DNA of 11,567 bases, from assembly GCA_045863295.1 (NCBI GenBank), contig BTWA01000015.1, positions 125,508 to 137,074 of the forward strand. The letters run 5' to 3'. The notes beneath the pieces were generated by a model. It saw only the letters and a list, made by a program, of their open reading frames with translations. It was not told the origin of the DNA and ran no database searches. Below, piece after piece: positions 1 through 10,422 of this stretch. Positions within the stretch are counted from its first letter, which is position 1, and every line of letters begins with the position of its first letter. Origin of the DNA: Candidatus Hydrogenedentota bacterium (GTDB lineage Bacteria > Hydrogenedentota > Hydrogenedentia > Hydrogenedentales > SLHB01). A program made the translations under genes and the position numbers.

Positions 1-105
1 CTTGCCCTCTGTCACCGGCAGTGGCTTGCCCGCTGTAACCGGCAGTGGCTTGCCCGCTGTAACCGGCAGTGGCTTGCCCTCTGTCACCGGCAGTGGCTTG
101 CCCGC
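1..105. repeat. 24-bp tandem repeat (at least 4.4 copies, two variants), coding octapeptides on the minus strand
   Basis: CTTGCCCTCTGTCACCGGCAGTGG at 1-24 and 73-96; CTTGCCCGCTGTAACCGGCAGTGG at 25-48 and 49-72; partial CTTGCCCGC at 97-105. No spacers. Confidence 0.97.
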
Positions 106-490
106 AAATAATTCGTGCTGTATCCGCACCGCGAGCTATAAGCAGATCAATCGCACCTTTTCGGTCACCGCAATAGATCACATTGGCGCACGGAACCTTG
201 TACTTTGCGCCATCATCAATAGCGACGAGACTTTTTTTCTCGGCCTCGAACACAATCCACTTTGCATCATCAGTCCAGTCGAGAAGCCTTCCGTCTCCTT
301 CGCCCCATAGGAGACCATGGAGCCCATATCCGCAAACGGGTTTAGGGTTGAAATCACTGCATCGCACCGGACCGGACTCGGGCCATTTGAATCCGTTGGC
401 ATCCGGACTCGGACTGGACATATCGGCTTTACAGGTACGCAGAAGAAGCACCATCTCGGGCTTTTTCGTTTTTTTCTTTCGCTCAGCCAT
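1..490 (-). CDS. Phage protein with an ice-nucleation-protein (InaZ)-like N-terminal domain followed by GQATAG(YS/DR) octapeptide repeats; 3'-partial, runs off the window
   Basis: Not in the ORF track. Manual translation from ATG 490 (in-frame ATGs also at 505 and 511): MAERKKKTKKPEMVLLLRTCKADMSSPSPDANGFKWPESGPVRCSDFNPKPVCGYGLHGLLWGEGDGRLLDWTDDAKWIVFEAEKKSLVAIDDGAKYKVPCANVIYCGDRKGAIDLLIARGADTARIICGQATAGDRGQATAGYSGQATAGYSGQATAGDRGQ..., no stop before base 1, co-oriented with the early operon. Confidence 0.85.
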   Translation of the reverse strand, partial: MAERKKKTKKPEMVLLLRTCKADMSSPSPDANGFKWPESGPVRCSDFNPKPVCGYGLHGLLWGEGDGRLLDWTDDAKWIVFEAEKKSLVAIDDGAKYKVPCANVIYCGDRKGAIDLLIARGADTARIICGQATAGDRGQATAGYSGQATAGYSGQATAGDRGQ

Positions 491-530: not shown

Positions 531-575
531 AGGGGCGTCCGGGGAGGGATTCGCGGGCTGGTCCCGGACGCCCCT
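531..575. other. GC-rich intergenic stem-loop (13-bp perfect stem, 19-nt loop)
   Basis: AGGGGCGTCCGGG (531-543) and CCCGGACGCCCCT (563-575) between the nuclease stop and the next start; no U-tract. Confidence 0.7.
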
Positions 576-581
576 TGGCGC

Positions 582-1490
582 TCACGCGGCGGACTCGGTA
601 TCCAACCGCGTGTTTGGGACGTTGTCATCCACCAGCTTCGATCCGAATGGGCACCACTGGCGGACTGAGCAAAACCGCAGACACCGCGTACATTCGCCGC
701 CACGTTGTTCGATCTCTGCGTTGCATCCTTGAGCAGCAGCAAAACGTTCGGCAGCCGCCAGGGTATCGAACGATCCCCCACCTTTCATGGCGCGGACGCC
801 ACCGACTTTTTTCACTGCGTATGTGACGGGCTTTTCCCACCGTTCCTCTGGACTGCATACGGGGAGAACGGTCTCATCCAGTTCAAACGCCTGTTTATGG
901 TCCTGAATCCGTTCGAGGATGTACGCCTCGGCGTCGGATGCGTGCCAAAGGGTTATGGGCACAACCTGGACACTCGATTCCGGGTAGTTCGGCATCGTGC
1001 CTACCCGCGACTGTGACCAGTCGCGCAGAAGAACGACAACCTGGAGGCGGTTCACCGTCTCGCCGTGGTGCTCCAGCAACCAGGCGTACACGTTCAATTG
1101 CCGCTCCCAGTCCTTGTGCTCGCCTTGCTGAAACCCATACACGCTCGTCATCTTGTAGTCCGTGAGCGTGCCGTCCGGCTCCAGTAAATCCATGCGGCCA
1201 CGTAACTGCATGCCGCCGATGGAAACCGCGAATGCCTTCTCTTGCAGCACATTGCTGTCATCGTCGCCCGTCTCCAGGATCCGGTGTACGGACTGGCCCA
1301 TGACCGCCCACACGCGATCGCTGGCGTCCTCGGTGATCTCGTTCCAGTGGGCGAGTTCAAGCTTGCGCACGAGCGGCGGTTTAATCAGATCGGTGACTCC
1401 GATCTGGTGTGTGTGTCTCTCCCGGTTTGCGCCCCGCGACAACACGTCGTACAGAGGTTCCGGTAGATTGTGTTTGTTCGTGATGATCAT
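582..1490 (-). CDS. PD-(D/E)XK nuclease superfamily protein (RecB/Cas4-like phage exonuclease)
   Basis: 302 aa. Motifs GQSVHRILE, RGRMDLL...TDYK (PD-(D/E)xK), QLNVY (QxxxY) and a C-terminal Cys cluster; GGGAG SD upstream; next to ERF. Confidence 0.85.
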   Translation of the reverse strand: MIITNKHNLPEPLYDVLSRGANRERHTHQIGVTDLIKPPLVRKLELAHWNEITEDASDRVWAVMGQSVHRILETGDDDSNVLQEKAFAVSIGGMQLRGRMDLLEPDGTLTDYKMTSVYGFQQGEHKDWERQLNVYAWLLEHHGETVNRLQVVVLLRDWSQSRVGTMPNYPESSVQVVPITLWHASDAEAYILERIQDHKQAFELDETVLPVCSPEERWEKPVTYAVKKVGGVRAMKGGGSFDTLAAAERFAAAQGCNAEIEQRGGECTRCLRFCSVRQWCPFGSKLVDDNVPNTRLDTESAA

Positions 1491-1498
1491 CCCACTCC

Positions 1499-2242
1499 CT
1501 AGAAGCTGTACCGGCGCTTCGCCGCGTTAGAGACCGCGCCCGCCGGTTGCGGAGCGTGCCCGTTGCTGTTGGTTCCGTTCGCCGTGTGGACTTTGCGCAG
1601 GAATGCAAGAAACTGATCCAGACCCATCTTTTCGTTGCACCCTTGGCGCAACAGCGCTTCACGCTTCGCCGGCGGTGTGCGATACTCGGCAAACAACGCT
1701 TGGACCTCGGGGTTCTCGGCTACGTCTGCGTAGGAAATGGATCTGGATGTACCCGATTCCTCTCGCTTGGGTTTTCTGTCTACGACGGCGTCCGCCTCCG
1801 GATCGTCGCCGGTCTCCAGGTTGAGACCTTTCAGGAACCCGTATTTGATGGCGTACGACATTGCCTTGCCAGGCGCTTTGTCCTGCTGGTCCATGCCTTC
1901 GCCAATCATCGGGCCTACGGTGACGCGCTCATCTGGGTTGTCCACGTTCACGAAGTGCATGACCACATGCACGATGCAATGGAAGACGCGCTTTTCGTTC
2001 CCGTTTTTGTCCGGCACAACCATCACTTCCGTCATTTGGTGGATGGTTTCCGGGTAGGCGTATACACCGTGCTTGATCAGGTGTGGGCGAACGGCTCCCA
2101 CCACGTCGTCGTGTTTGGCATACCGGAACCGGCCAAGCATTTCCGGGGCGGTACCGGTTTTTTGGATGTAGGCGACGTCGGCCATCACCGCGAGTAACCG
2201 CTGATGAATGTTGAGCGTCTTTTCGTTGGTTTGGGTGTCCAT
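1499..2242 (-). CDS. erf: ERF-family single-strand annealing recombination protein
   Basis: NIHQRLLAVMADVAYIQK...YAKHDDVVGAVRPHLIKHG...GEGMDQQDKAPGKAMSYAIKY...TGDDPE is typical of ERF. Start placed at ATG 2242 (GGAGG SD, just past the upstream stop at 2245) rather than 2311. Confidence 0.85.
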   Translation of the reverse strand: MDTQTNEKTLNIHQRLLAVMADVAYIQKTGTAPEMLGRFRYAKHDDVVGAVRPHLIKHGVYAYPETIHQMTEVMVVPDKNGNEKRVFHCIVHVVMHFVNVDNPDERVTVGPMIGEGMDQQDKAPGKAMSYAIKYGFLKGLNLETGDDPEADAVVDRKPKREESGTSRSISYADVAENPEVQALFAEYRTPPAKREALLRQGCNEKMGLDQFLAFLRKVHTANGTNSNGHAPQPAGAVSNAAKRRYSF

Positions 2243-3233: not shown

Positions 3234-3478
3234 GTCTCGCTCTCTGCGATAAACGCTTCCAAATCCGCCCGGCGTATCTTCCAGGTCCGCCCACCGGGCG
3301 TCTTCACGCCGTTCAGCGGTATTTCCGGTTCCCGCAGGTACCGGGTCACGGTCTGCTCACTCACACCCAGGATCTCCGCCGCCTCCGGCACGGTCACCCA
3401 GTCCGATAGAACTCGGTCGATCTTCGCCTCCAACCGATCCAGCCGTGAAAGAATCTCGTTCGTCTCCGCCACGGTCAT
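3230..3478 (-). CDS. Excisionase-like winged HTH (HTH_17) DNA-binding protein
   Basis: WVTVPEAAEILGVSEQTVTRYLRE...GVKTPGGRTWKIRRADLEAFI is a clear HTH_17 pattern; ATGA coupling. Confidence 0.85.
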   Translation of the reverse strand: MTVAETNEILSRLDRLEAKIDRVLSDWVTVPEAAEILGVSEQTVTRYLREPEIPLNGVKTPGGRTWKIRRADLEAFIAESET

Positions 3479-3987
3479 TGCAACCCCCGCTTGTGCGCGT
3501 CAGAGAGACTTGCCGCACGCGCGTTCACCCGCCGCGCTTCCTCGGTCTTGCGGACTCGCCGCGAGCGAATAGAGGCCAACGCATCCGCCATGCGGAGCAC
3601 GTCGAGTTCGATCTGTTTCAGTTCATCTTCGTCCGCCACCCCGTCTTCCGCCGAGGCCGCAACCGTCTCCATGAGTTCCGCGGTGCGCGTGCACAAGGTG
3701 TGTATGCTCGTGGATTGCGCCGCGCGCGCTTTCGCCTTCTCCACCTGGTGCGCAATCACATCGGCAACCAACGTCGAGCCAGTCGCTTCGCAAAATGCCG
3801 CCACGGAAACAGCAGGAATATCCCGAATGGGTTTGCCGGTCGTGGGCGAGTCCTGCCACTGCCGGATCGTGTGATCCGCGTAACCCGTGGCCACGTGGAT
3901 GGCCGCAATCGTTTCCGCCACCGACATGCCGGAGTTTTCGATGCTGATACGAACCGCCTCGGCAATGGTCAGCCCCGATGGTTTCAT
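3475..3987 (-). CDS. Phage regulatory protein, CII-like (186/P2-type CII family)
   Basis: N-terminal HTH-like segment, VAAFCEATGS...IA, and C-terminal AEDGVADEDELKQIE pattern; lies downstream of the cro-like genes. Confidence 0.6.
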   Translation of the reverse strand: MKPSGLTIAEAVRISIENSGMSVAETIAAIHVATGYADHTIRQWQDSPTTGKPIRDIPAVSVAAFCEATGSTLVADVIAHQVEKAKARAAQSTSIHTLCTRTAELMETVAASAEDGVADEDELKQIELDVLRMADALASIRSRRVRKTEEARRVNARAASLSDAHKRGLQ

Positions 3988-4703: not shown

Positions 4704-4782
4704 TGTAGGCTTTGTTGCCTTTCTGTAGTTTAGTGTAGCGTAGAATTCTACAATTGTCAACACAAATGTAGAATAAATGTAG
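4704..4782. promoter_or_regulatory. Operator array of the genetic switch
   Basis: Perfect palindrome GTAGAATTCTAC (4740-4751) in the promoter spacer; TGTAG half-sites at 4704, 4724, 4734, 4767 and 4778; AAATGTAG repeated at 4764 and 4775. Confidence 0.65.
4732..4760 (-). promoter_or_regulatory. Sigma70-type lytic/early promoter
   Basis: Minus strand TTGACA (4760-4755), 17-nt spacer, TACACT (4737-4732). Confidence 0.8.
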
Positions 4783-4815: not shown

Positions 4816-5298
4816 ATGAGTTATCTTTTAGGTATGGGTGCGAACGCTGAAGACCGTATTTCTGTGATTCGGGCCGAATTGGATAGTGGCCTTCAGCGCG
4901 AGGGAAACGGCTTCATTCGGCGCGTTGCGGAAAGAGCAAAGTTAACACCAAACTACGTCAGCAACTTTAAGGGCGGTAGGGTGCAGCTGAGCGATTCCGC
5001 CATCAGTAGACTTGAAGCCGCACTAGAACTCGAAAGAAAAGGATTAGGCTACCCGCAGCAATTGCTAGTGGATCACCGGACGGCCCATGGAATTCCCCCT
5101 GTCAAAAATCCGTACACCCACTTGAATCCGATAGACATTACGATGGAAGGGTTGCGGAACCTGCTCGTAATGGCGTCCGATCCCAAAGTGCCGCAAGAAG
5201 AGAAGGCCACGCTGATTCGAACGTCGCTTCAGTACATTTTGAATCACGTGCTTCCGAAGGAACCGGATCAGAAACAAAACCCAACAGACAATACTTGA
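4816..5298 (+). CDS. CI-like prophage repressor (N-terminal HTH, no S24 peptidase domain)
   Basis: IRRVAERAKLTPNYVSNFKGGRVQLSDSAISRLEAAL HTH; divergent from cro across the operator region. Start may be 4816 or 4834. Confidence 0.7.
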   Translation: MSYLLGMGANAEDRISVIRAELDSGLQREGNGFIRRVAERAKLTPNYVSNFKGGRVQLSDSAISRLEAALELERKGLGYPQQLLVDHRTAHGIPPVKNPYTHLNPIDITMEGLRNLLVMASDPKVPQEEKATLIRTSLQYILNHVLPKEPDQKQNPTDNT

Positions 5299-5485: not shown

Positions 5486-5866
5486 ATGCTCGGCAACACC
5501 CGAAAAGCAGTACTCCTAGCGTTCGCCTTGACCCTCATGGCTGCGTGCGACTCCCCTCAGTCGCGCACCCAAGAAAGCCAGACTGGCTACACCAGGTCGG
5601 CGGAGACCTCACCCGCCTCGACTTCCCCAACCGCTCCTGCCGTCACTTACCAGGCACCGCCGGCCGTCACCCCACCAGCGACCTACCAAGCGCCGGCAAG
5701 GCTCCAGGAAACCCGGACCGCGTCCGTCTATATAGCCCCCTACTCCGGAAAGAAATACCACAGTTCTCCGTCCTGTCGCGGCCTGAACAATGCCGCCAGT
5801 GTGGCCGAAATCAGCCAGTCGACCGCCCAAGGCAGAGGGCTCACCCCATGCAAGATTTGCTGGTGA
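5486..5866 (+). CDS. Lipoprotein with Pro/Thr/Ser linker and a C-terminal Ada-like metal-binding domain
   Basis: Signal peptide with lipobox LMAA-C; low-complexity linker; VYIAPYSGKKYHSSPSC...GLTPCKIC (His + 3 Cys). Confidence 0.75.
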   Translation: MLGNTRKAVLLAFALTLMAACDSPQSRTQESQTGYTRSAETSPASTSPTAPAVTYQAPPAVTPPATYQAPARLQETRTASVYIAPYSGKKYHSSPSCRGLNNAASVAEISQSTAQGRGLTPCKICW

Positions 5867-5875
5867 AACAAAACG

Positions 5876-6946
5876 ATGAACGGTAATTGGCCAGGAAACT
5901 TCACTCAGGACGCTTTCAGAAGCCGTATCGACGACGCCCACTCCGAACACAGAAGCGTCCTGAGACTTGTCATTGCAGCGGTACTGCCTATTGGGATATT
6001 GGTTGGCTACAACTGGACGGGCAAGAGCAACATTATTAGTGCCGTTTTCCTCTTGACAGTGATTACTATACTTTCTCCACGCTACATTCTTAATCCGGTT
6101 TTTGTGTATGCGATTGGGCTCGCCGCAGTCGTTCGCTCTTTCTGGCGTATCCTAACGGGTAATACCCCTGATTGGCCAAACCTCTCGATGTTTGCATCGC
6201 CGTTTGACGCCGGCCCAATTGACAACGCACATGGAACGGAAACAGAGAAACTGTACGGACTCCTGAGTCACGAAAGAGGGTTTTCTATACGCCTTGTACT
6301 GATTGTCGCCTTGCTACTTGGGGGATTTATAGGGTTCACTTGGGCAGACTGGCTCTCGTCACAGAACGAGAACTATTTGCTTTTTGGGTATCTAACCGCC
6401 GCAATATTCTTCGTTATGCGCCAGCGGACACGCATCGACTTCGCAAAGGGGATCGCATTACTTGTCATCAGTCGGCGCTTTATAGTTGGAACTCTGGCTA
6501 TCTCGGGTGTGCTCGTTTCTATAGGCCTATTTATAGTCATTGCCGCACTGATTGTCGGTCGCGCCTTTCCAAGCACAAGGAGCGCCGAAGAACCTCCGGA
6601 AATCAACCTTAGTCCGGATGACCTGCTTCACGATCCGGAATTTCATCTGAGAGTTGAGGCCGCCGAACGTGAATGGTATACCAGTCCCGACACCGGAGAA
6701 CGAGCATGTAGGCTGCAATTGGCGATTTCAAACTCTGGCGATCAAACCGCCGAGACGGCATCTGTGCTTGTGCAATTACTGGATAATTCAAACTCGGTTG
6801 TCGCAACTAAGAGATACGCCGTGGCAGACCCATCCAGGCCCGAAAAGGCCATTCCAGCGAGATCCATAGCCTTTTACGACGTGGACGTAACTGAGTTGCT
6901 GCTCCGCAATGAGTTCGGATCTTTTTTGGTGAAAATGGACTGGTAG
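5876..6946 (+). CDS. Multi-pass membrane protein with a C-terminal Ig-like (FxLYD-like) domain
   Basis: 356 aa with several hydrophobic segments; C-terminal LAISNSGDQTAETASVLVQLLDNSNSVVAT...IPARS beta-sandwich pattern. Confidence 0.7.
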   Translation: MNGNWPGNFTQDAFRSRIDDAHSEHRSVLRLVIAAVLPIGILVGYNWTGKSNIISAVFLLTVITILSPRYILNPVFVYAIGLAAVVRSFWRILTGNTPDWPNLSMFASPFDAGPIDNAHGTETEKLYGLLSHERGFSIRLVLIVALLLGGFIGFTWADWLSSQNENYLLFGYLTAAIFFVMRQRTRIDFAKGIALLVISRRFIVGTLAISGVLVSIGLFIVIAALIVGRAFPSTRSAEEPPEINLSPDDLLHDPEFHLRVEAAEREWYTSPDTGERACRLQLAISNSGDQTAETASVLVQLLDNSNSVVATKRYAVADPSRPEKAIPARSIAFYDVDVTELLLRNEFGSFLVKMDW

Positions 6947-7313: not shown

Positions 7314-7643
7314 TTGAATAGACAATCCCTCACACCATCCGAAGTAAAGCGGCGGGTACTGGAACTGCTTAACTTGGGTAGATACTCGGATGAGAGCGGC
7401 CACTTCAAACACAAGCACAGAAATATCTTACGTAACCACATCACCTATGTGCTCCAGACCGGGCAGGCAATTCAAGAGCGATTCGAATGGAGTACGGAGG
7501 TCTATGCATGGAGGTACGTCATAGAGGGAATTGACCAAGACGGCCGAAACCTCAGAATCGTATTCGAATTCATTGAAGTTTCCCCGTTTCCAGATGAATG
7601 GATCTATGTGGTTTCTGCCTACGACCTAAACCTAAAGGACTGA
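7314..7643 (+). CDS. Putative toxin, DUF4258-like (RelE/BrnT-like RNase fold)
   Basis: 109 aa, TTG start; SGHFKHKHRNI...ITYVLQTG...WRYVIEGIDQDGRNLRIVF...IYVVSAY pattern; directly upstream of an HTH antitoxin. Confidence 0.72.
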   Translation: MNRQSLTPSEVKRRVLELLNLGRYSDESGHFKHKHRNILRNHITYVLQTGQAIQERFEWSTEVYAWRYVIEGIDQDGRNLRIVFEFIEVSPFPDEWIYVVSAYDLNLKD

Positions 7644-7647
7644 CACT

Positions 7648-8160
7648 ATGGTATTTACAGATTCGGGATTTGGGTTCCCAGTTGTAATCCACAACGCGGA
7701 TACCATGAATATCCGAGGTAAGATAGTCCCCAAAGTCAACCTTTTGGAGCTGGAACGGACTATCTTGGAACGATTGGTTGTAATCCAACGTCGTCTTACC
7801 GGTAACGAGGTCCGATTCATACGCCTTTGGTTGAAAATGGGAGCGACTGCTTTCGCCAATACCTTGGGGGTGACTCACCCGGCAGTGCTCGGGTGGGAAA
7901 AAAGGGGCGACAGACCGACGACAATGAACTGGGGGACCGAATTCCTGCTACGGTTTAATCTTGCCACTGAACTCAATATGCCAACGAGCGCCCTAGTGGA
8001 TTTTGCCGCTAGTAAAGTGCCGGTAACCCAATCCGATACCTACGAACCCATGCAAATCGTACTAGACACTCAATGGGTGGCGTGTGCCAATACGTCAGTC
8101 ACATCAAGCCACGCGGTCAACACGAAGGCGGGTGTAAATGTTCTCATCCATGCAGCTTGA
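7648..8160 (+). CDS. Antitoxin, MqsA/HigA-like XRE HTH with a C-terminal chaperone-addiction-like tail
   Basis: RLTGNEVRFIRLWLKMGATAFANTLGVTHPAVLGWEK HTH; about 45-50 aa Ser/Thr/Val-rich C-terminal extension ending IHAA. Confidence 0.8.
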   Translation: MVFTDSGFGFPVVIHNADTMNIRGKIVPKVNLLELERTILERLVVIQRRLTGNEVRFIRLWLKMGATAFANTLGVTHPAVLGWEKRGDRPTTMNWGTEFLLRFNLATELNMPTSALVDFAASKVPVTQSDTYEPMQIVLDTQWVACANTSVTSSHAVNTKAGVNVLIHAA

Positions 8161-8560
8161 CCGGATCGAACTCGTTCGTCTTTCGATTGAACATAGCCCA
8201 CGGCCTCAAGACATCGAACTTAAAGATCCTGAAAAGGACTGGGTTCATGTCGAATACACATGCAACGCACATGATGTCAAACCTTGGTTCCAGGTGAAAC
8301 TGCAAATCATGGTGGACCGGGCAAGTAAAGGGGACCAGCGAATTGACGTCGAACTAGAGGCTTATTTCAAATTTCCGGAAGGTACCGGCCTCGAAATTAT
8401 GCAGCTATTCGTACCGAACACCTGCGTGGCTCATGCAATTAATTACGCCCGCAATATCATCTATGAAGCTACTTCACAAACAAAATATGGCCCCTTTCGT
8501 CTTCCATTACTTGATCTCGTGGCGATCGAGCAAAAGAAGGCCGAAACGGCAAACCCTTAG
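8138..8560 (+). CDS. SecB-like chaperone of a TAC module
   Basis: 140 aa; N-terminal SMQLDRI, beta-strand IDVELEAYFKF and C-terminal AINYARNIIYEATSQTKYGPFRLPLLDL matching the SecB-family Y-x-R...T...P-x-x-LP motif; overlaps the antitoxin 3' end. Confidence 0.8.
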   Translation: MFSSMQLDRIELVRLSIEHSPRPQDIELKDPEKDWVHVEYTCNAHDVKPWFQVKLQIMVDRASKGDQRIDVELEAYFKFPEGTGLEIMQLFVPNTCVAHAINYARNIIYEATSQTKYGPFRLPLLDLVAIEQKKAETANP

Positions 8561-8610
8561 GGAATCGTTCCCGCTCCCGCACGAATCGGGTATGGTTGGT
8601 AACCCACAGC

Positions 8611-8632
8611 TCGTCGTACCATCGTCGTACCA
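8611..8632 (+). repeat. Tandem 11-bp direct repeat, candidate integrase arm-type binding sites
   Basis: TCGTCGTACCA at 8611-8621 and 8622-8632, about 115 bp inside the att core. Confidence 0.65.
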
Positions 8633-8745
8633 AAAATCGATACTATGATATAATCAACGAAAATAACGAAAGGAGTGACTGCCTTCAACCCCTTTAAACA
8701 CACATTGTTATAGACTAACACACATTCAACGAAATCTACCGTTTC

Positions 8746-8793
8746 TGCTTGACATGCAAGGGGTCGGAGGTTCGAGTCCTCTACCGCCCACCA
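8746..8793 (+). other. att site: duplicated 3' half of tRNA-Val(GAC), not an intact tRNA
   Basis: TGC-TTGACAT-GCAAG anticodon arm (GAC at 8751-8753), T arm GGAGG-TTCGAGT-CCTCT, acceptor 3' strand ACCGCCC-A-CCA. Upstream has no acceptor 5' strand or D arm, and pairing fails in the outer anticodon stem. Confidence 0.9.
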
Positions 8794-9003
8794 ATTTTTT
8801 CCCCCTTTTTTCTAGAGTCTCTCCGCATGTCATGTCCAGTGCCGTGGGTGGCTTCTCTATTGTTGCAATAGACAAGCCGAGTTGCCACCGTTTGGATACT
8901 ATTTGGTTGGCGGGCAAAATATAGGACAGGCAAGAATCAAGGGCATTCGCCAGATGGATCTGTTTCCAAAACTCATCGTCCCTTTGTAAATTCGGTCCTC
9001 CTA

Positions 9004-10422
9004 CTATTTTTCTGCAATGCAATAGAGGTTTCTACGGCCCTTCAAATACAGTTCGTCGCCGGCGATAATCGGAGACGCATCGAATCCGTCCTCCAGAACG
9101 TTGGTGGCTAGAAGTTCGAACGTGTCCGATTTCTTGACGACCGCCACGTTTCCATCGCGATCGGCAATATAGATCTTGTTCCCGGCGCCGGCAGGTGAAG
9201 CGTAGATTTGTCCTAATCCATCAATGGCTTGCGCTGTAAACATGGCTTTTCCAGATTTTGCGTCGTAGCAGGACAACTCGGCACCGCGATCGGCAGTGAG
9301 ATAAATGCGGTCATCATAAAGCAGAGGTGAGGCAACGTATGGCGTGCCTTGGGTCACTTCCCAAGCAATGGCAGGCGTACCGGTCAAGTCGCCGGTTTGC
9401 GCCAAATCAATGGCTTTCAAGGAGTATCCTCGGAAACCGCTGGTGCAGTACACACTCCCAAAACCGGATACGGGTGTTGGGATGGTATTGGCGGTGAGTC
9501 CGGCGCACTCCCAGACAACGTCGCCCGTCTTGGCATCATAACTGCGAATGCGGTTGGTTGCCGCGGTGACGACTTGTAGCGCGCCGTCTACGGCGACGGG
9601 CAGTGGCGAACTCCATGCGGTGGCTTCCTCACGGGCCTTTTCCCAAAGCAGATCGCCGGTGTCCTTGTTAAACGCCATGATTTTCGAGCCCGCTTCGTGA
9701 TCCATCAGCACCACGATGGCGTCACCGGCCAAGGCAGGAGAACTGCCTTCGCCGAAGCTGTTTTTCATTTGCATCTTTCCCAAGTCACGGGACCACTTTT
9801 GATTTCCCTCCAAGTCGTAGCAATACAATCCCCGGGACCCGAAACTGGCCCACAGCAATTTGCCGTCAGTCACCGGTGAATTGGAGGCATAGCTACCCGT
9901 GGGGTGCCTTCCCTCATGGGGAACCTCTTCTCGGGCCGTCTTCTCCCAGAGCAGTTTTCCAGTCTTTCGATCGTAACACACCACATTGAACTTATAGGGG
10001 AACGAGGGAGGCGGAGTACGCATTCCGCCGCCACGGGATCTACCCTCGCGGGACCCTCCTTCACGCTGTAAACCGGCTTGCGGTGCAGCCGGATTGGTCC
10101 CTTCTGATTGCGGTCCACCGGATTGCGCCCTATCTTGAGACTGCCCGGCAGGCGGAGCCTGTTCCTCTTGGGTAGGCACGGCAGTCTGAATGAAAATCTT
10201 GTCGTCCCAGATAATGGGTGTCGAGTGGCTAAGGCCGGGCAATTCGGTTTTCCACTTTATGTTTTGGGTCTCACTCCAAGTAGAAGGGGGATTGCCTTTG
10301 GATGCCGCCCCATTGTTGTTGGGTCCCCGCCATGATGGCCAGTTGTCTTCCATGGCGGCGCCATAACTGACCAATGCAGGAAATACGACACTCGCAATAC
10401 ACCAAAACCGAAGTAAACGCAT
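9004..10422 (-). CDS. Secreted PQQ-binding-like beta-propeller (BamB-like repeat) protein, host gene
   Basis: Signal peptide then NWPSWRGP...NIKWKTELPG..HSTPIIW, repeated D-x-x-TG-x-x-x-W blades, ASP motifs. Start at ATG 10422 (AGGGAG SD) rather than 10659. Confidence 0.88.
   Translation of the reverse strand: MRLLRFWCIASVVFPALVSYGAAMEDNWPSWRGPNNNGAASKGNPPSTWSETQNIKWKTELPGLSHSTPIIWDDKIFIQTAVPTQEEQAPPAGQSQDRAQSGGPQSEGTNPAAPQAGLQREGGSREGRSRGGGMRTPPPSFPYKFNVVCYDRKTGKLLWEKTAREEVPHEGRHPTGSYASNSPVTDGKLLWASFGSRGLYCYDLEGNQKWSRDLGKMQMKNSFGEGSSPALAGDAIVVLMDHEAGSKIMAFNKDTGDLLWEKAREEATAWSSPLPVAVDGALQVVTAATNRIRSYDAKTGDVVWECAGLTANTIPTPVSGFGSVYCTSGFRGYSLKAIDLAQTGDLTGTPAIAWEVTQGTPYVASPLLYDDRIYLTADRGAELSCYDAKSGKAMFTAQAIDGLGQIYASPAGAGNKIYIADRDGNVAVVKKSDTFELLATNVLEDGFDASPIIAGDELYLKGRRNLYCIAEK

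What the first reader, a model, noticed from the sequence alone, without database searches (positions are those of the whole stretch)
1..490. Unannotated phage early gene resembling ice-nucleation proteins (InaZ-like N-domain plus octapeptide repeats)
Seen: an edge ORF absent from the track with LLLRTCKADM...GFKWPESGPV...GLHGLLWGEG...DAKWIVFE...KVPCANVIYCGDR. This follows, motif by motif, the InaZ N-terminal domain as I recall it (LVLRTCANNM...GLIWPASGTV...GLVGLLWGAG...DARWIVCE...KFPRAEVVHVGDR). It is followed by 8-residue repeats (TAGYSGQA/TAGDRGQA) with the same period as the INP AGYGSTxT octapeptide. Inference: a phage relative of INPs sitting in a recombination/early operon with no signal peptide, so probably intracellular. 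The repeats lack the TxT water-ordering motif, so ice nucleation is doubtful. It may bear on the origin of INPs and the function of their N-domain. Similar repeat proteins exist in other phages, so the family itself may already be catalogued.
Basis: partly seen in the sequence, partly recalled or inferred. Interest (0 to 1): 0.75.

Follow-up and report, generated by a model that had tools for sequence, protein, structure and literature searches.

The report
Phage miniature of ice-nucleation proteins
A prophage gene encodes a short protein (estimated 270 residues) that shares its head and end-cap domains with bacterial ice-nucleation proteins but is likely far too short to make ice; its head is predicted to fold like an ADP-ribosyltransferase, and ice nucleators likely descend from this large phage family.

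Summary
Observation confirmed. The ORF (490 to 1, minus strand) continues across a 100-N assembly gap into more 24-bp repeats and a 51-residue cap; contig depths suggest about 11 octapeptides, about 270 aa. It lies in the recombination operon of a 61-kb prophage. The family is catalogued: PHROG 18079, Bordetella phage Bbp36 (VR2 repeats, dispensable) and Mica gp48, already annotated "ice nucleation protein". Homology to INPs is real at both ends. Head: 82 bits versus 8.7 for shuffles, 34-40% identity. Cap: significant at family level (HHalign 98.9%), not for this sequence alone. It is not an INP: about 5.5 coils versus about 67, 8- not 16-periodic, QAT instead of TxT, no linker. The predicted head resembles the ADP-ribosyltransferase fold (first 30 VIA-align rows, but Z at most 5.1) and phage rIIB. 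A conserved CxxGLH...KxK site (265 of 282 relatives) is missing in 31 of 31 INPs. Short relatives vastly outnumber INPs, suggesting INPs are a derived offshoot; the tree does not prove nesting (AU p=0.48). Best guess: an early cytoplasmic host-conflict factor using a nucleotide-binding head. The scan reached this reading before on another genome (e1-10033630).

The parts
1..490 (-). Bbp36/PHROG 18079-family gene, 5' part. It continues left of the window across a 100-N gap to a stop at G000:C15:125151 (L001:9644); whole product estimated at about 270 aa.
122..457 (-). Globular head, homologous to the INP N-terminal domain; predicted ADP-ribosyltransferase-like fold; conserved R18, C53, H58, K96, K98
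1..105 (-). First 4.4 copies of the 24-bp / 8-aa repeat (QATAG-DR-G or QATAG-YS-G); predicted two-strand-per-coil beta-solenoid. About 11 units in all, followed outside the window by the 51-aa cap.
   Evidence: fold predicted on homologue P0025
531..575 (.). Perfect 13-bp inverted repeat in the gap between the exonuclease gene and this gene; role unknown
582..1490 (-). PD-(D/E)XK exonuclease, directly upstream in the same operon
1499..2242 (-). Erf-family single-strand annealing protein
3475..3987 (-). CII-like regulator (weak match)
   Evidence: E 0.003
4732..4760 (-). Sigma70-like promoter (10 of 12 matches) facing the operon that holds the gene, divergent from the putative repressor gene; a consensus match only
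4816..5298 (+). Putative repressor (weak HTH match)
   Evidence: E 0.045
8746..8794 (+). attR: 49-bp perfect copy of the 3' part of tRNA-Val(GAC) at C15:73487-73535, bounding a prophage of about 60.8 kb

Best explanation
This is a prophage gene of the Bbp36/PHROG 18079 family whose product shares its head and end cap with ice-nucleation proteins, and it likely acts in the cytoplasm early in lytic growth as a dispensable host-conflict factor, using a predicted ADP-ribosyltransferase-like head that would bind or transfer NAD+/ADP-ribose or a related nucleotide, carried on a short predicted beta-solenoid. Shown: gene, prophage and operon position, family membership, homology of both terminal domains to INPs, and a conserved R/C/H/K site. 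Predicted: ART-like head, beta-solenoid plus cap, structural likeness to the C-terminal domain of phage rIIB anti-defence proteins. Inferred: early expression from the Cro-side promoter; a nucleotide ligand; lysines rather than the usual catalytic glutamate on the strand where QxE/ExE normally sits (from strand order, not from a residue-level superposition), so either a Tpt1/Arr-like glutamate-free enzyme or a non-catalytic binder; and a solenoid acting as a rigid spacer or binding surface whose length drifts in frame by 24-bp slippage. INPs are likely a domesticated offshoot that lost the head's site, gained a linker and expanded the solenoid more than ten-fold into 16-residue water-ordering coils.
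For: Family: PHROG 18079 covers the head (E 9e-22) and the repeats plus cap (E 1e-19). Bbp36 head 38% and cap 43% identical. Position: same-strand run of CII-like, Erf, exonuclease, this gene, SbcC-like and ParB genes inside att-bounded DNA. In IMG/VR relatives, 13 of 22 scanned neighbour-cluster representatives are helicases, exonucleases, annealing proteins, integrases or methylases, and none has a structural family as best hit. Fold: head pLDDT 94.8. The first 30 and 43 of 50 VIA-align rows are ART-superfamily entries by my reading of their titles (BC2332 Z 5.1, rmsd 4.1, 89 aligned; TreTu 4.5/3.9/84; Tpt1, Arr, PARPs), and all 21 rows are too. Independently, a DUF7666 protein of phage fEg-Aba01 is annotated 'putative ADP-ribosyltransferase' from an Arr structure match. 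BFVD returns rIIB proteins at E 4e-4 to 1e-3, TM about 0.5-0.6; rIIA/rIIB counter RexAB and are otherwise non-essential (PMC13716836). bbp36 is non-essential and its repeats vary from 9 to 20 (PMC2884959 citing Liu 2004); BPP-1, BIP-1 and BMP-1 carry 14, 20 and 21 units in frame. Conserved site: CxxG[LF]H in 265 of 282 family heads, 18 of 18 rIIB domains and at least 90% of 54 canonical DUF7666 domains, but 0 of 31 INP heads.
Against: The best structural Z is only 5.1, which the tool calls middling. Foldseek found no PDB match at E up to 0.001, and sequence profiles found no ART in the PDB. The rIIB link is structural and motif-level only: the family profile gives 3.5 bits versus 10.8 for shuffles and HHalign 4%. 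The family profile does not align significantly to canonical DUF7666 by HHalign, and the window's own head misses the Pfam DUF7666 model. No ligand, target, partner gene or phenotype is known. The tree nests INPs among phage proteins only with unstarred support (SH-aLRT 84-88), and a sister relationship is not rejected (p-AU 0.479). 6 of 140 short relatives also lack the His, so the site is not indispensable in the phage family.
Confidence: 0.5

Rival explanations
1. The head is a catalytically dead nucleic-acid-binding module and the protein is an accessory of the phage's own recombination or replication machinery (exonuclease, annealing protein, SbcC-like partner), not a conflict factor.
For: It sits between exonuclease/Erf and SbcC-like genes. 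A permuted relative in a second prophage of the same genome also precedes exonuclease-, RecT- and SbcC-like ORFs (my reading of the sequences). The conserved site is basic and the N-terminus is Lys-rich.
Against: No single neighbour recurs in more than 10 of about 70 viral loci (ORFs under 130 aa not examined). Early operons collect accessory genes of all kinds. bbp36 is dispensable.
Confidence: 0.22
2. It is an active protein-modifying ADP-ribosyltransferase toxin or host-takeover enzyme (like T4 Alt/Mod, or the toxin of a toxin-antitoxin pair).
For: ART-like fold. The fEg-Aba01 DUF7666 gene was proposed as the toxin of a TA pair (PMC7354433). Glutamate-free ARTs (Tpt1, Arr) are among the top rows.
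Against: No conserved acidic residue on the inferred catalytic strand (K96-x-K98; register inferred). No recurrent partner gene found, though small ORFs were not examined.
Confidence: 0.15
3. It is an ice-active protein (nucleator or ice binder) that helps the lysogen, as proposed for phage Mica.
For: True homology to INPs at both ends. The predicted solenoid resembles beta-solenoids including antifreeze proteins (Z 7.5-8.1). 68 of 116 long relatives have TxT in at least 70% of units. PMC7883832 proposes the role.
Against: About 5.5 coils versus a median of 135 half-repeats (about 67 coils) in 24 INPs. A 12-coil PbINP construct was inactive and at least 8 R-coils are thought to be needed (PMC9418140, PMC10727499). 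This member has QAT, no TxT. No export signal. It lies on the lytic side of the genetic switch. Repeat cores vary freely across the family.
Confidence: 0.05
4. Evolutionary rival: INPs and the phage family are sister groups, or the short phage genes were cut down from captured INP genes.
For: The AU test does not reject monophyly of the short proteins (p 0.479); the outgroup is remote and the INP branch is long.
Against: INPs make up 10 of the top 150 clusters and the profile reaches 1520 clusters at 50% identity. The short proteins share the CxxGxH..K site and the head-repeat-cap layout with the outgroup, while INPs lack the site. Short proteins are 8-periodic (lag-1 0.75, lag-2 0.75) and INPs 16-periodic (0.45, 0.65). 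Derivation of the short family from INPs would need regain of the site.
Confidence: 0.3

Closest known systems
Bordetella phage BPP-1 Bbp36 (variable region VR2) / PHROG 18079
   Same: Same three parts; head 38% and cap 43% identical; 24-bp in-frame repeats; early-region location near repressor, exonuclease and annealing genes
   Different: Repeat core QAT rather than TAT; about 11 units; host in an unrelated small phylum (1 of 135 genomes of that phylum match)
Burkholderia phage Mica gp48 (annotated 'ice nucleation protein'); Pseudomonas phage D14O DBA08803
   Same: Same family and layout; the INP similarity was noticed by BLAST and published
   Different: The published reading as a lysogen virulence factor is not supported by its size or repeat type
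Bacterial ice-nucleation proteins (InaZ/InaK/IceA/InaX type)
   Same: Homologous N-terminal domain (34-40% identity) and C-terminal cap (HHalign 98.9%); octapeptides in register
   Different: INPs have a linker (77-120 versus about 35 residues from head to first repeat), 96-166 half-repeats in 16-residue coils, TxT/SLT motifs in about 88% of half-repeats, and lack the head's C, H and first K
Pfam DUF7666 (PF24703), canonical phage proteins such as fEg-Aba01 gp28c and ES18 gp53
   Same: K..CxxGFH..K site, octapeptide solenoid and the same cap (47 bits); 10 of 11 close relatives of the window protein reach the Pfam cut-off
   Different: Remote head sequence: the window head itself misses the model and HHalign is not significant
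T4-like phage rIIB C-terminal domain
   Same: Predicted-structure match (E 4e-4 to 1e-3, TM about 0.5-0.6); CxxGLH and K-x-R motif in 18 of 18
   Different: No significant sequence match; rIIB has an N-terminal HTH and no solenoid and works with rIIA
ADP-ribosyltransferase superfamily (TreTu, Tpt1/KptA, Arr, DUF952, PARP)
   Same: Dominates the structural matches of the predicted head
   Different: Z at most 5.1; no catalytic Glu evident; activity untested
E. coli YdhT
   Same: Same cap (38 bits) behind a degenerate small-residue repeat region
   Different: Different N-terminal domain; lies in a chromosomal oxidoreductase operon

Membership tests
Bbp36 / PHROG 18079 | Profile match over head, repeats and cap | tested here: met
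   (E 4e-29, 9e-22, 1e-19)
Bbp36 / PHROG 18079 | In-frame 24-bp tandem repeat in a phage early region | tested here: met
Ice-nucleation proteins | Conserved N-terminal globular domain | tested here: met
   81.9 bits versus 8.7; HHalign 100%
Ice-nucleation proteins | C-terminal cap | tested here: met
   Family level: 30 of 30 INP caps score 40-50 bits versus 9.3 for shuffles. The window's cap alone scores 5.9 bits against the INP cap profile, not significant.
Ice-nucleation proteins | Tens of 16-residue coils | tested here: not met
   About 11 octapeptides; family 8-periodic, median 6 units, versus INP median 135
Ice-nucleation proteins | TxT / SLT water-organising motifs; Pfam PF00818 | tested here: not met
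   Units read QAT; no PF00818 hit at E up to 0.1
Ice-nucleation proteins | Flexible linker between head and solenoid | tested here: not met
Ice-nucleation proteins | Ice nucleation activity; surface location | not testable with these tools
   needs droplet freezing and localisation
DUF7666 (PF24703) | Pfam gathering score of 27 bits | tested here: inconclusive
   The window head is not reported; 10 of 11 close relatives pass; 1 of 6 INP heads hits at 25.4 bits
ADP-ribosyltransferase superfamily | ART core fold | tested here: inconclusive
   First 30 and 43 of 50 rows are ART entries, but best Z is 5.1 at rmsd 4.1 over 89 residues; no Foldseek PDB hit at E up to 0.001. Leans to met.
ADP-ribosyltransferase superfamily | Catalytic triad (H-Y-E, R-S-E or glutamate-free variants) | tested here: inconclusive
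   Conserved R18, H58, K96/K98; positions assigned from strand order only
ADP-ribosyltransferase superfamily | NAD+ binding or transfer | not testable with these tools
   needs biochemistry
rIIB | Sequence homology of the C-terminal domain | tested here: not met
   (structure-level likeness only)
rIIB | rIIA partner gene | not tested
   no dedicated search was run

The most novel reading that the evidence does not exclude
Bacterial ice-nucleation proteins, and through them the fungal ones, are a domesticated phage gene: a small ADP-ribosyltransferase-fold host-conflict protein, related to T4 rIIB, whose slippage-prone 24-bp repeat was expanded into an ice-templating solenoid while the head's active site decayed. 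The INP N-terminal 'membrane anchor' would then be a dead enzyme domain, and the intact site survives in more than a thousand phage clusters such as this gene.
Probability: 0.55. Interest if true: 0.8.

Novelty: new member of a known kind. Interest (0 to 1): 0.57.

Why it matters
The gene itself is one more member of a catalogued phage family. What matters is the link it exposes. INP papers describe the N- and C-terminal domains as having no structural homologues (PMC9418140, passage) and the N-domain as dispensable for activity (PMC10727499); the passages and term counts read there do not mention phages. Showing that both domains belong to a large phage family, that the head is likely ART-like and that INPs lack its conserved site gives a testable origin for biological ice nucleators and a small, soluble natural stand-in for structural work on the INP head and cap. 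It also suggests a fold for the rIIB C-terminal domain and for Bbp36, and warns that 'ice nucleation protein' labels on phage genes are likely wrong as to function.

Tried and rejected
Frame break outside the window: rejected; it is a placeholder gap and contigs hold only whole 24-nt units. Window cap against the INP cap profile alone: not significant. Sequence link to rIIB: not significant. Bbp36-type versus canonical DUF7666 heads by HHalign: not significant. Sequence-profile searches of the PDB: only T4 gp5 and a cement protein at E 0.1-0.5, nothing useful. The idea that INP R-coils preserve the ancestral repeat: not supported overall (9.95 bits per unit versus 13.1 for water-organising coils under the family profile), although D/R at unit positions 6-7 is shared. 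Tree-based proof of nesting: failed (p-AU 0.479; 60 of 203 short proteins with caps, 13 INPs, 9 outgroup rows; quick method only). A dedicated partner gene: none among ORFs of 130 aa or more. The single-protein scan of IMG/VR found nothing; the alignment scan did. The PF00818 search of the own genome was uninformative, as its controls rang nowhere. The INP statistics were parsed in the wrong register and were redone; one search used a wrong frame and was redone. No RNA holder listed. No ESM Atlas result and no oligomer prediction were obtained, so monomer, dimer or trimer is open. Literature: no paper found for 'DUF7666'; none linking ice nucleation and ADP-ribosyltransferase (one unrelated listing); none linking rIIB and ART (PMC9503650 main text and its one supplementary file have no hit; PMC7824862 treats rIIB as a transcription factor). 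Searches gave no paper on a phage origin of INPs. Liu et al. 2004 (PMC344406) is not held, so whether it already notes the INP similarity of Bbp36 is unchecked; most subscription papers and bioRxiv supplements were not searchable.

Full report
Observation. The ORF begins at window 490 on the minus strand and carries all quoted motifs. The window is G000:C15:125508-137074, and its left edge abuts a 100-N placeholder gap. Beyond the gap the same 24-bp units resume and run in frame into a 51-residue cap and a stop, two bases before an SbcC-like gene. Period 24 is confirmed on both sides. Contigs of the probable source run contain only whole units; their depth ratios fit about 11 units, so about 270 aa. 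This is an estimate, not a closed sequence.

Context. A 49-bp perfect repeat at window 8746-8794 duplicates the 3' part of tRNA-Val(GAC) 60.8 kb away, next to an integrase-like ORF, so the gene lies in an integrated prophage. It is in a same-strand run of CII-like, Erf, exonuclease, this gene, SbcC-like and ParB genes, downstream of a sigma70-like site divergent from a putative repressor. Early lytic expression is inferred from this layout; no RNA data were available. The head occurs in 1 of 135 genomes of the host's phylum, this one.

Family. Head, repeats and cap all match PHROG 18079. Named members are Bordetella phage Bbp36, Burkholderia phage Mica gp48 and Pseudomonas phage D14O (8 phage records; annotations). 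PMC2884959 (passages read), citing Liu et al. 2004 (not held), says the 24-bp element of bbp36 repeats 9-20 times, has no known role and that the gene is non-essential; the three Bordetella isolates carry 14, 20 and 21 units in frame. The Mica announcement (PMC7883832, one passage) calls its copy an ice nucleation protein and possible virulence factor. The family is large: 155 proteins among 330 candidates and 146 of 179 IMG/VR stretches. Ten of 11 relatives pass Pfam DUF7666, but the window head does not hit it.

Relation to INPs. I fetched 62 INP loci. A profile of 31 distinct INP heads scores the window head 81.9 bits, versus at most 8.7 in 2000 shuffles; all 31 align at 34-40% identity, and 6 of 6 INP heads hit PHROG 18079. 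The window's cap alone is not significant against INP caps (5.9 bits), but the family cap profile scores 30 of 30 INP caps at 40-50 bits versus 9.3 in 3000 shuffles; HHalign gives 98.9% for caps and 100% for heads. So INPs and this family are homologous at both ends. They differ in the middle: family median 6 units, 8-periodic, about 35 residues from head to first repeat; 24 complete INPs have a median of 135 half-repeats, 16-periodic, 88% with TxT or xL[TI], and a 77-120-residue spacing. The window's units read QAT, whereas 149 of 198 relatives have a TxT core. With about 5.5 coils it is below the 12-coil PbINP construct that was inactive (PMC9418140, passages) and the eight R-coils thought necessary (PMC10727499, passages). 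It is not an INP.

Structure. The head folds confidently (pLDDT 94.8); a full-length relative, P0025, gives head, regular beta-solenoid and cap (pLDDT 97.3), the solenoid matching adhesin heads and antifreeze proteins at Z 7-9. Against 48,161 PDB chains the first 30 and 43 of 50 rows for the head are ADP-ribosyltransferase-fold entries, by my knowledge of those entries, though the best Z is only 5.1 (rmsd 4.1, 89 aligned); one search agrees, Foldseek alone gives no significant PDB hit, and sequence profiles find no ART. Among predicted viral structures the matches are DUF7666 proteins, rIIB proteins and giant-virus ankyrin proteins. A canonical DUF7666 protein of phage fEg-Aba01 was independently annotated as a putative ADP-ribosyltransferase from an Arr match (PMC7354433 passages). 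The rIIB link has no sequence significance.

Conserved site and direction of change. R18, C53, H58, K96 and K98 are invariant or nearly so in 87 aligned relatives. CxxG[LF]H is present in 265 of 282 family heads, 18 of 18 rIIB domains and at least 90% of 54 canonical DUF7666 domains, and in 0 of 31 INP heads, which also lack the first lysine. Six of 140 short relatives lack the His as well. A profile of 24 INP heads plus the window head reaches 1520 clusters at 50% identity; only 10 of the best 150 are INPs and the rest are short proteins of median 241 aa. A head-plus-cap tree rooted on canonical DUF7666 places INPs as one long-branched clade among the short proteins, in an unresolved group with Bbp36, Mica and D14O (SH-aLRT 88, unstarred), but the AU test does not reject a sister position (p 0.479). 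INPs as a derived offshoot is therefore favoured by character states and diversity, not shown by the tree.

Mechanism. Most likely an early, cytoplasmic, dispensable host-conflict factor: an ART-like head that binds or transfers NAD+/ADP-ribose or a related nucleotide through a basic R/H/K site without an evident catalytic glutamate, on a rigid solenoid of drifting length closed by the cap (confidence 0.5). Support is by analogy with rIIB, which counters RexAB and is otherwise non-essential (PMC13716836, passages), and from neighbourhoods dominated by DNA-metabolism genes with no fixed partner. Rivals: recombination accessory (0.22), active ART toxin or takeover enzyme (0.15), ice-active protein (0.05).

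Novelty. The family and its BLAST-level INP similarity are known, so this locus is a new member of a known kind. I found no paper stating that both INP terminal domains come from a phage family or that the INP head is ART-like (term searches in PMC9503650 with its supplement; PMC7824862 passages; PMC12978214 passages; PMC10688885 and PMC12938034 passages were irrelevant). The library lacks most subscription papers. An earlier, unreviewed note of this scan on another genome (e1-10033630) gives the same reading; I saw it after my own tests, and it is not independent evidence. Interest 0.57; the origin hypothesis has probability 0.55 and would merit 0.8.

Noticed in passing
window 7314-8560 (+): Three adjacent prophage genes, a DUF4258 protein, an MqsA/HigA-like HTH protein and a SecB-like protein, look like a toxin-antitoxin-chaperone (TAC) anti-phage cassette (the last two matches are below curated cut-offs).
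   Followed up: partly
G000:C29:48464-49410 (L184): A second prophage in the same genome has a permuted relative: 8-residue repeats first (also broken by a 100-N gap), a DUF7666-like domain last, just before exonuclease-, RecT- and SbcC-like ORFs.
   Followed up: partly
L005:4748-5560 (E. coli ydhT): E. coli YdhT, in the ydhYVWXUT oxidoreductase operon, carries the same C-terminal cap (38 bits) behind degenerate repeats but a different head; possibly another cellular recruitment of the solenoid-cap module.
   Followed up: partly
L146:2466-3404 (T4 rIIB): The rIIB C-terminal domain has no Pfam match, shares the CxxGLH..KxR motif and weakly matches canonical DUF7666 (HHalign 45%); an ART-like fold for rIIB was not found stated in the papers searched.
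   Followed up: partly
P0213; L115; P0095; P0084: Family variants: P0213 has three tandem heads that lack the His; L115, P0095 and P0084 have STLTGG-, STLTAG- or ATQTAG-type repeats approaching INP half-repeats (P0095 passes PF00818), candidates for ice-binding tests.
   Followed up: no
L082, L101, L114; contigs behind L092/L108/L124 and L136/L144: Several viral contigs carry two or more copies of the family.
   Followed up: no
window 531-575: Perfect 13-bp GC-rich inverted repeat between the exonuclease gene and the gene under study, without a T-tail.
   Followed up: no
window 7800-10200: Contig depth is 12.5 on the prophage side of attR and 9.4 on the host side in the one run laid; at most a weak hint of excess phage DNA.
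   Followed up: no
window 5486-6946 (+): A predicted lipoprotein (lipobox-like motif, my reading) and a multi-pass membrane protein follow the repressor on the lysogenic side; no confident family match.
   Followed up: no
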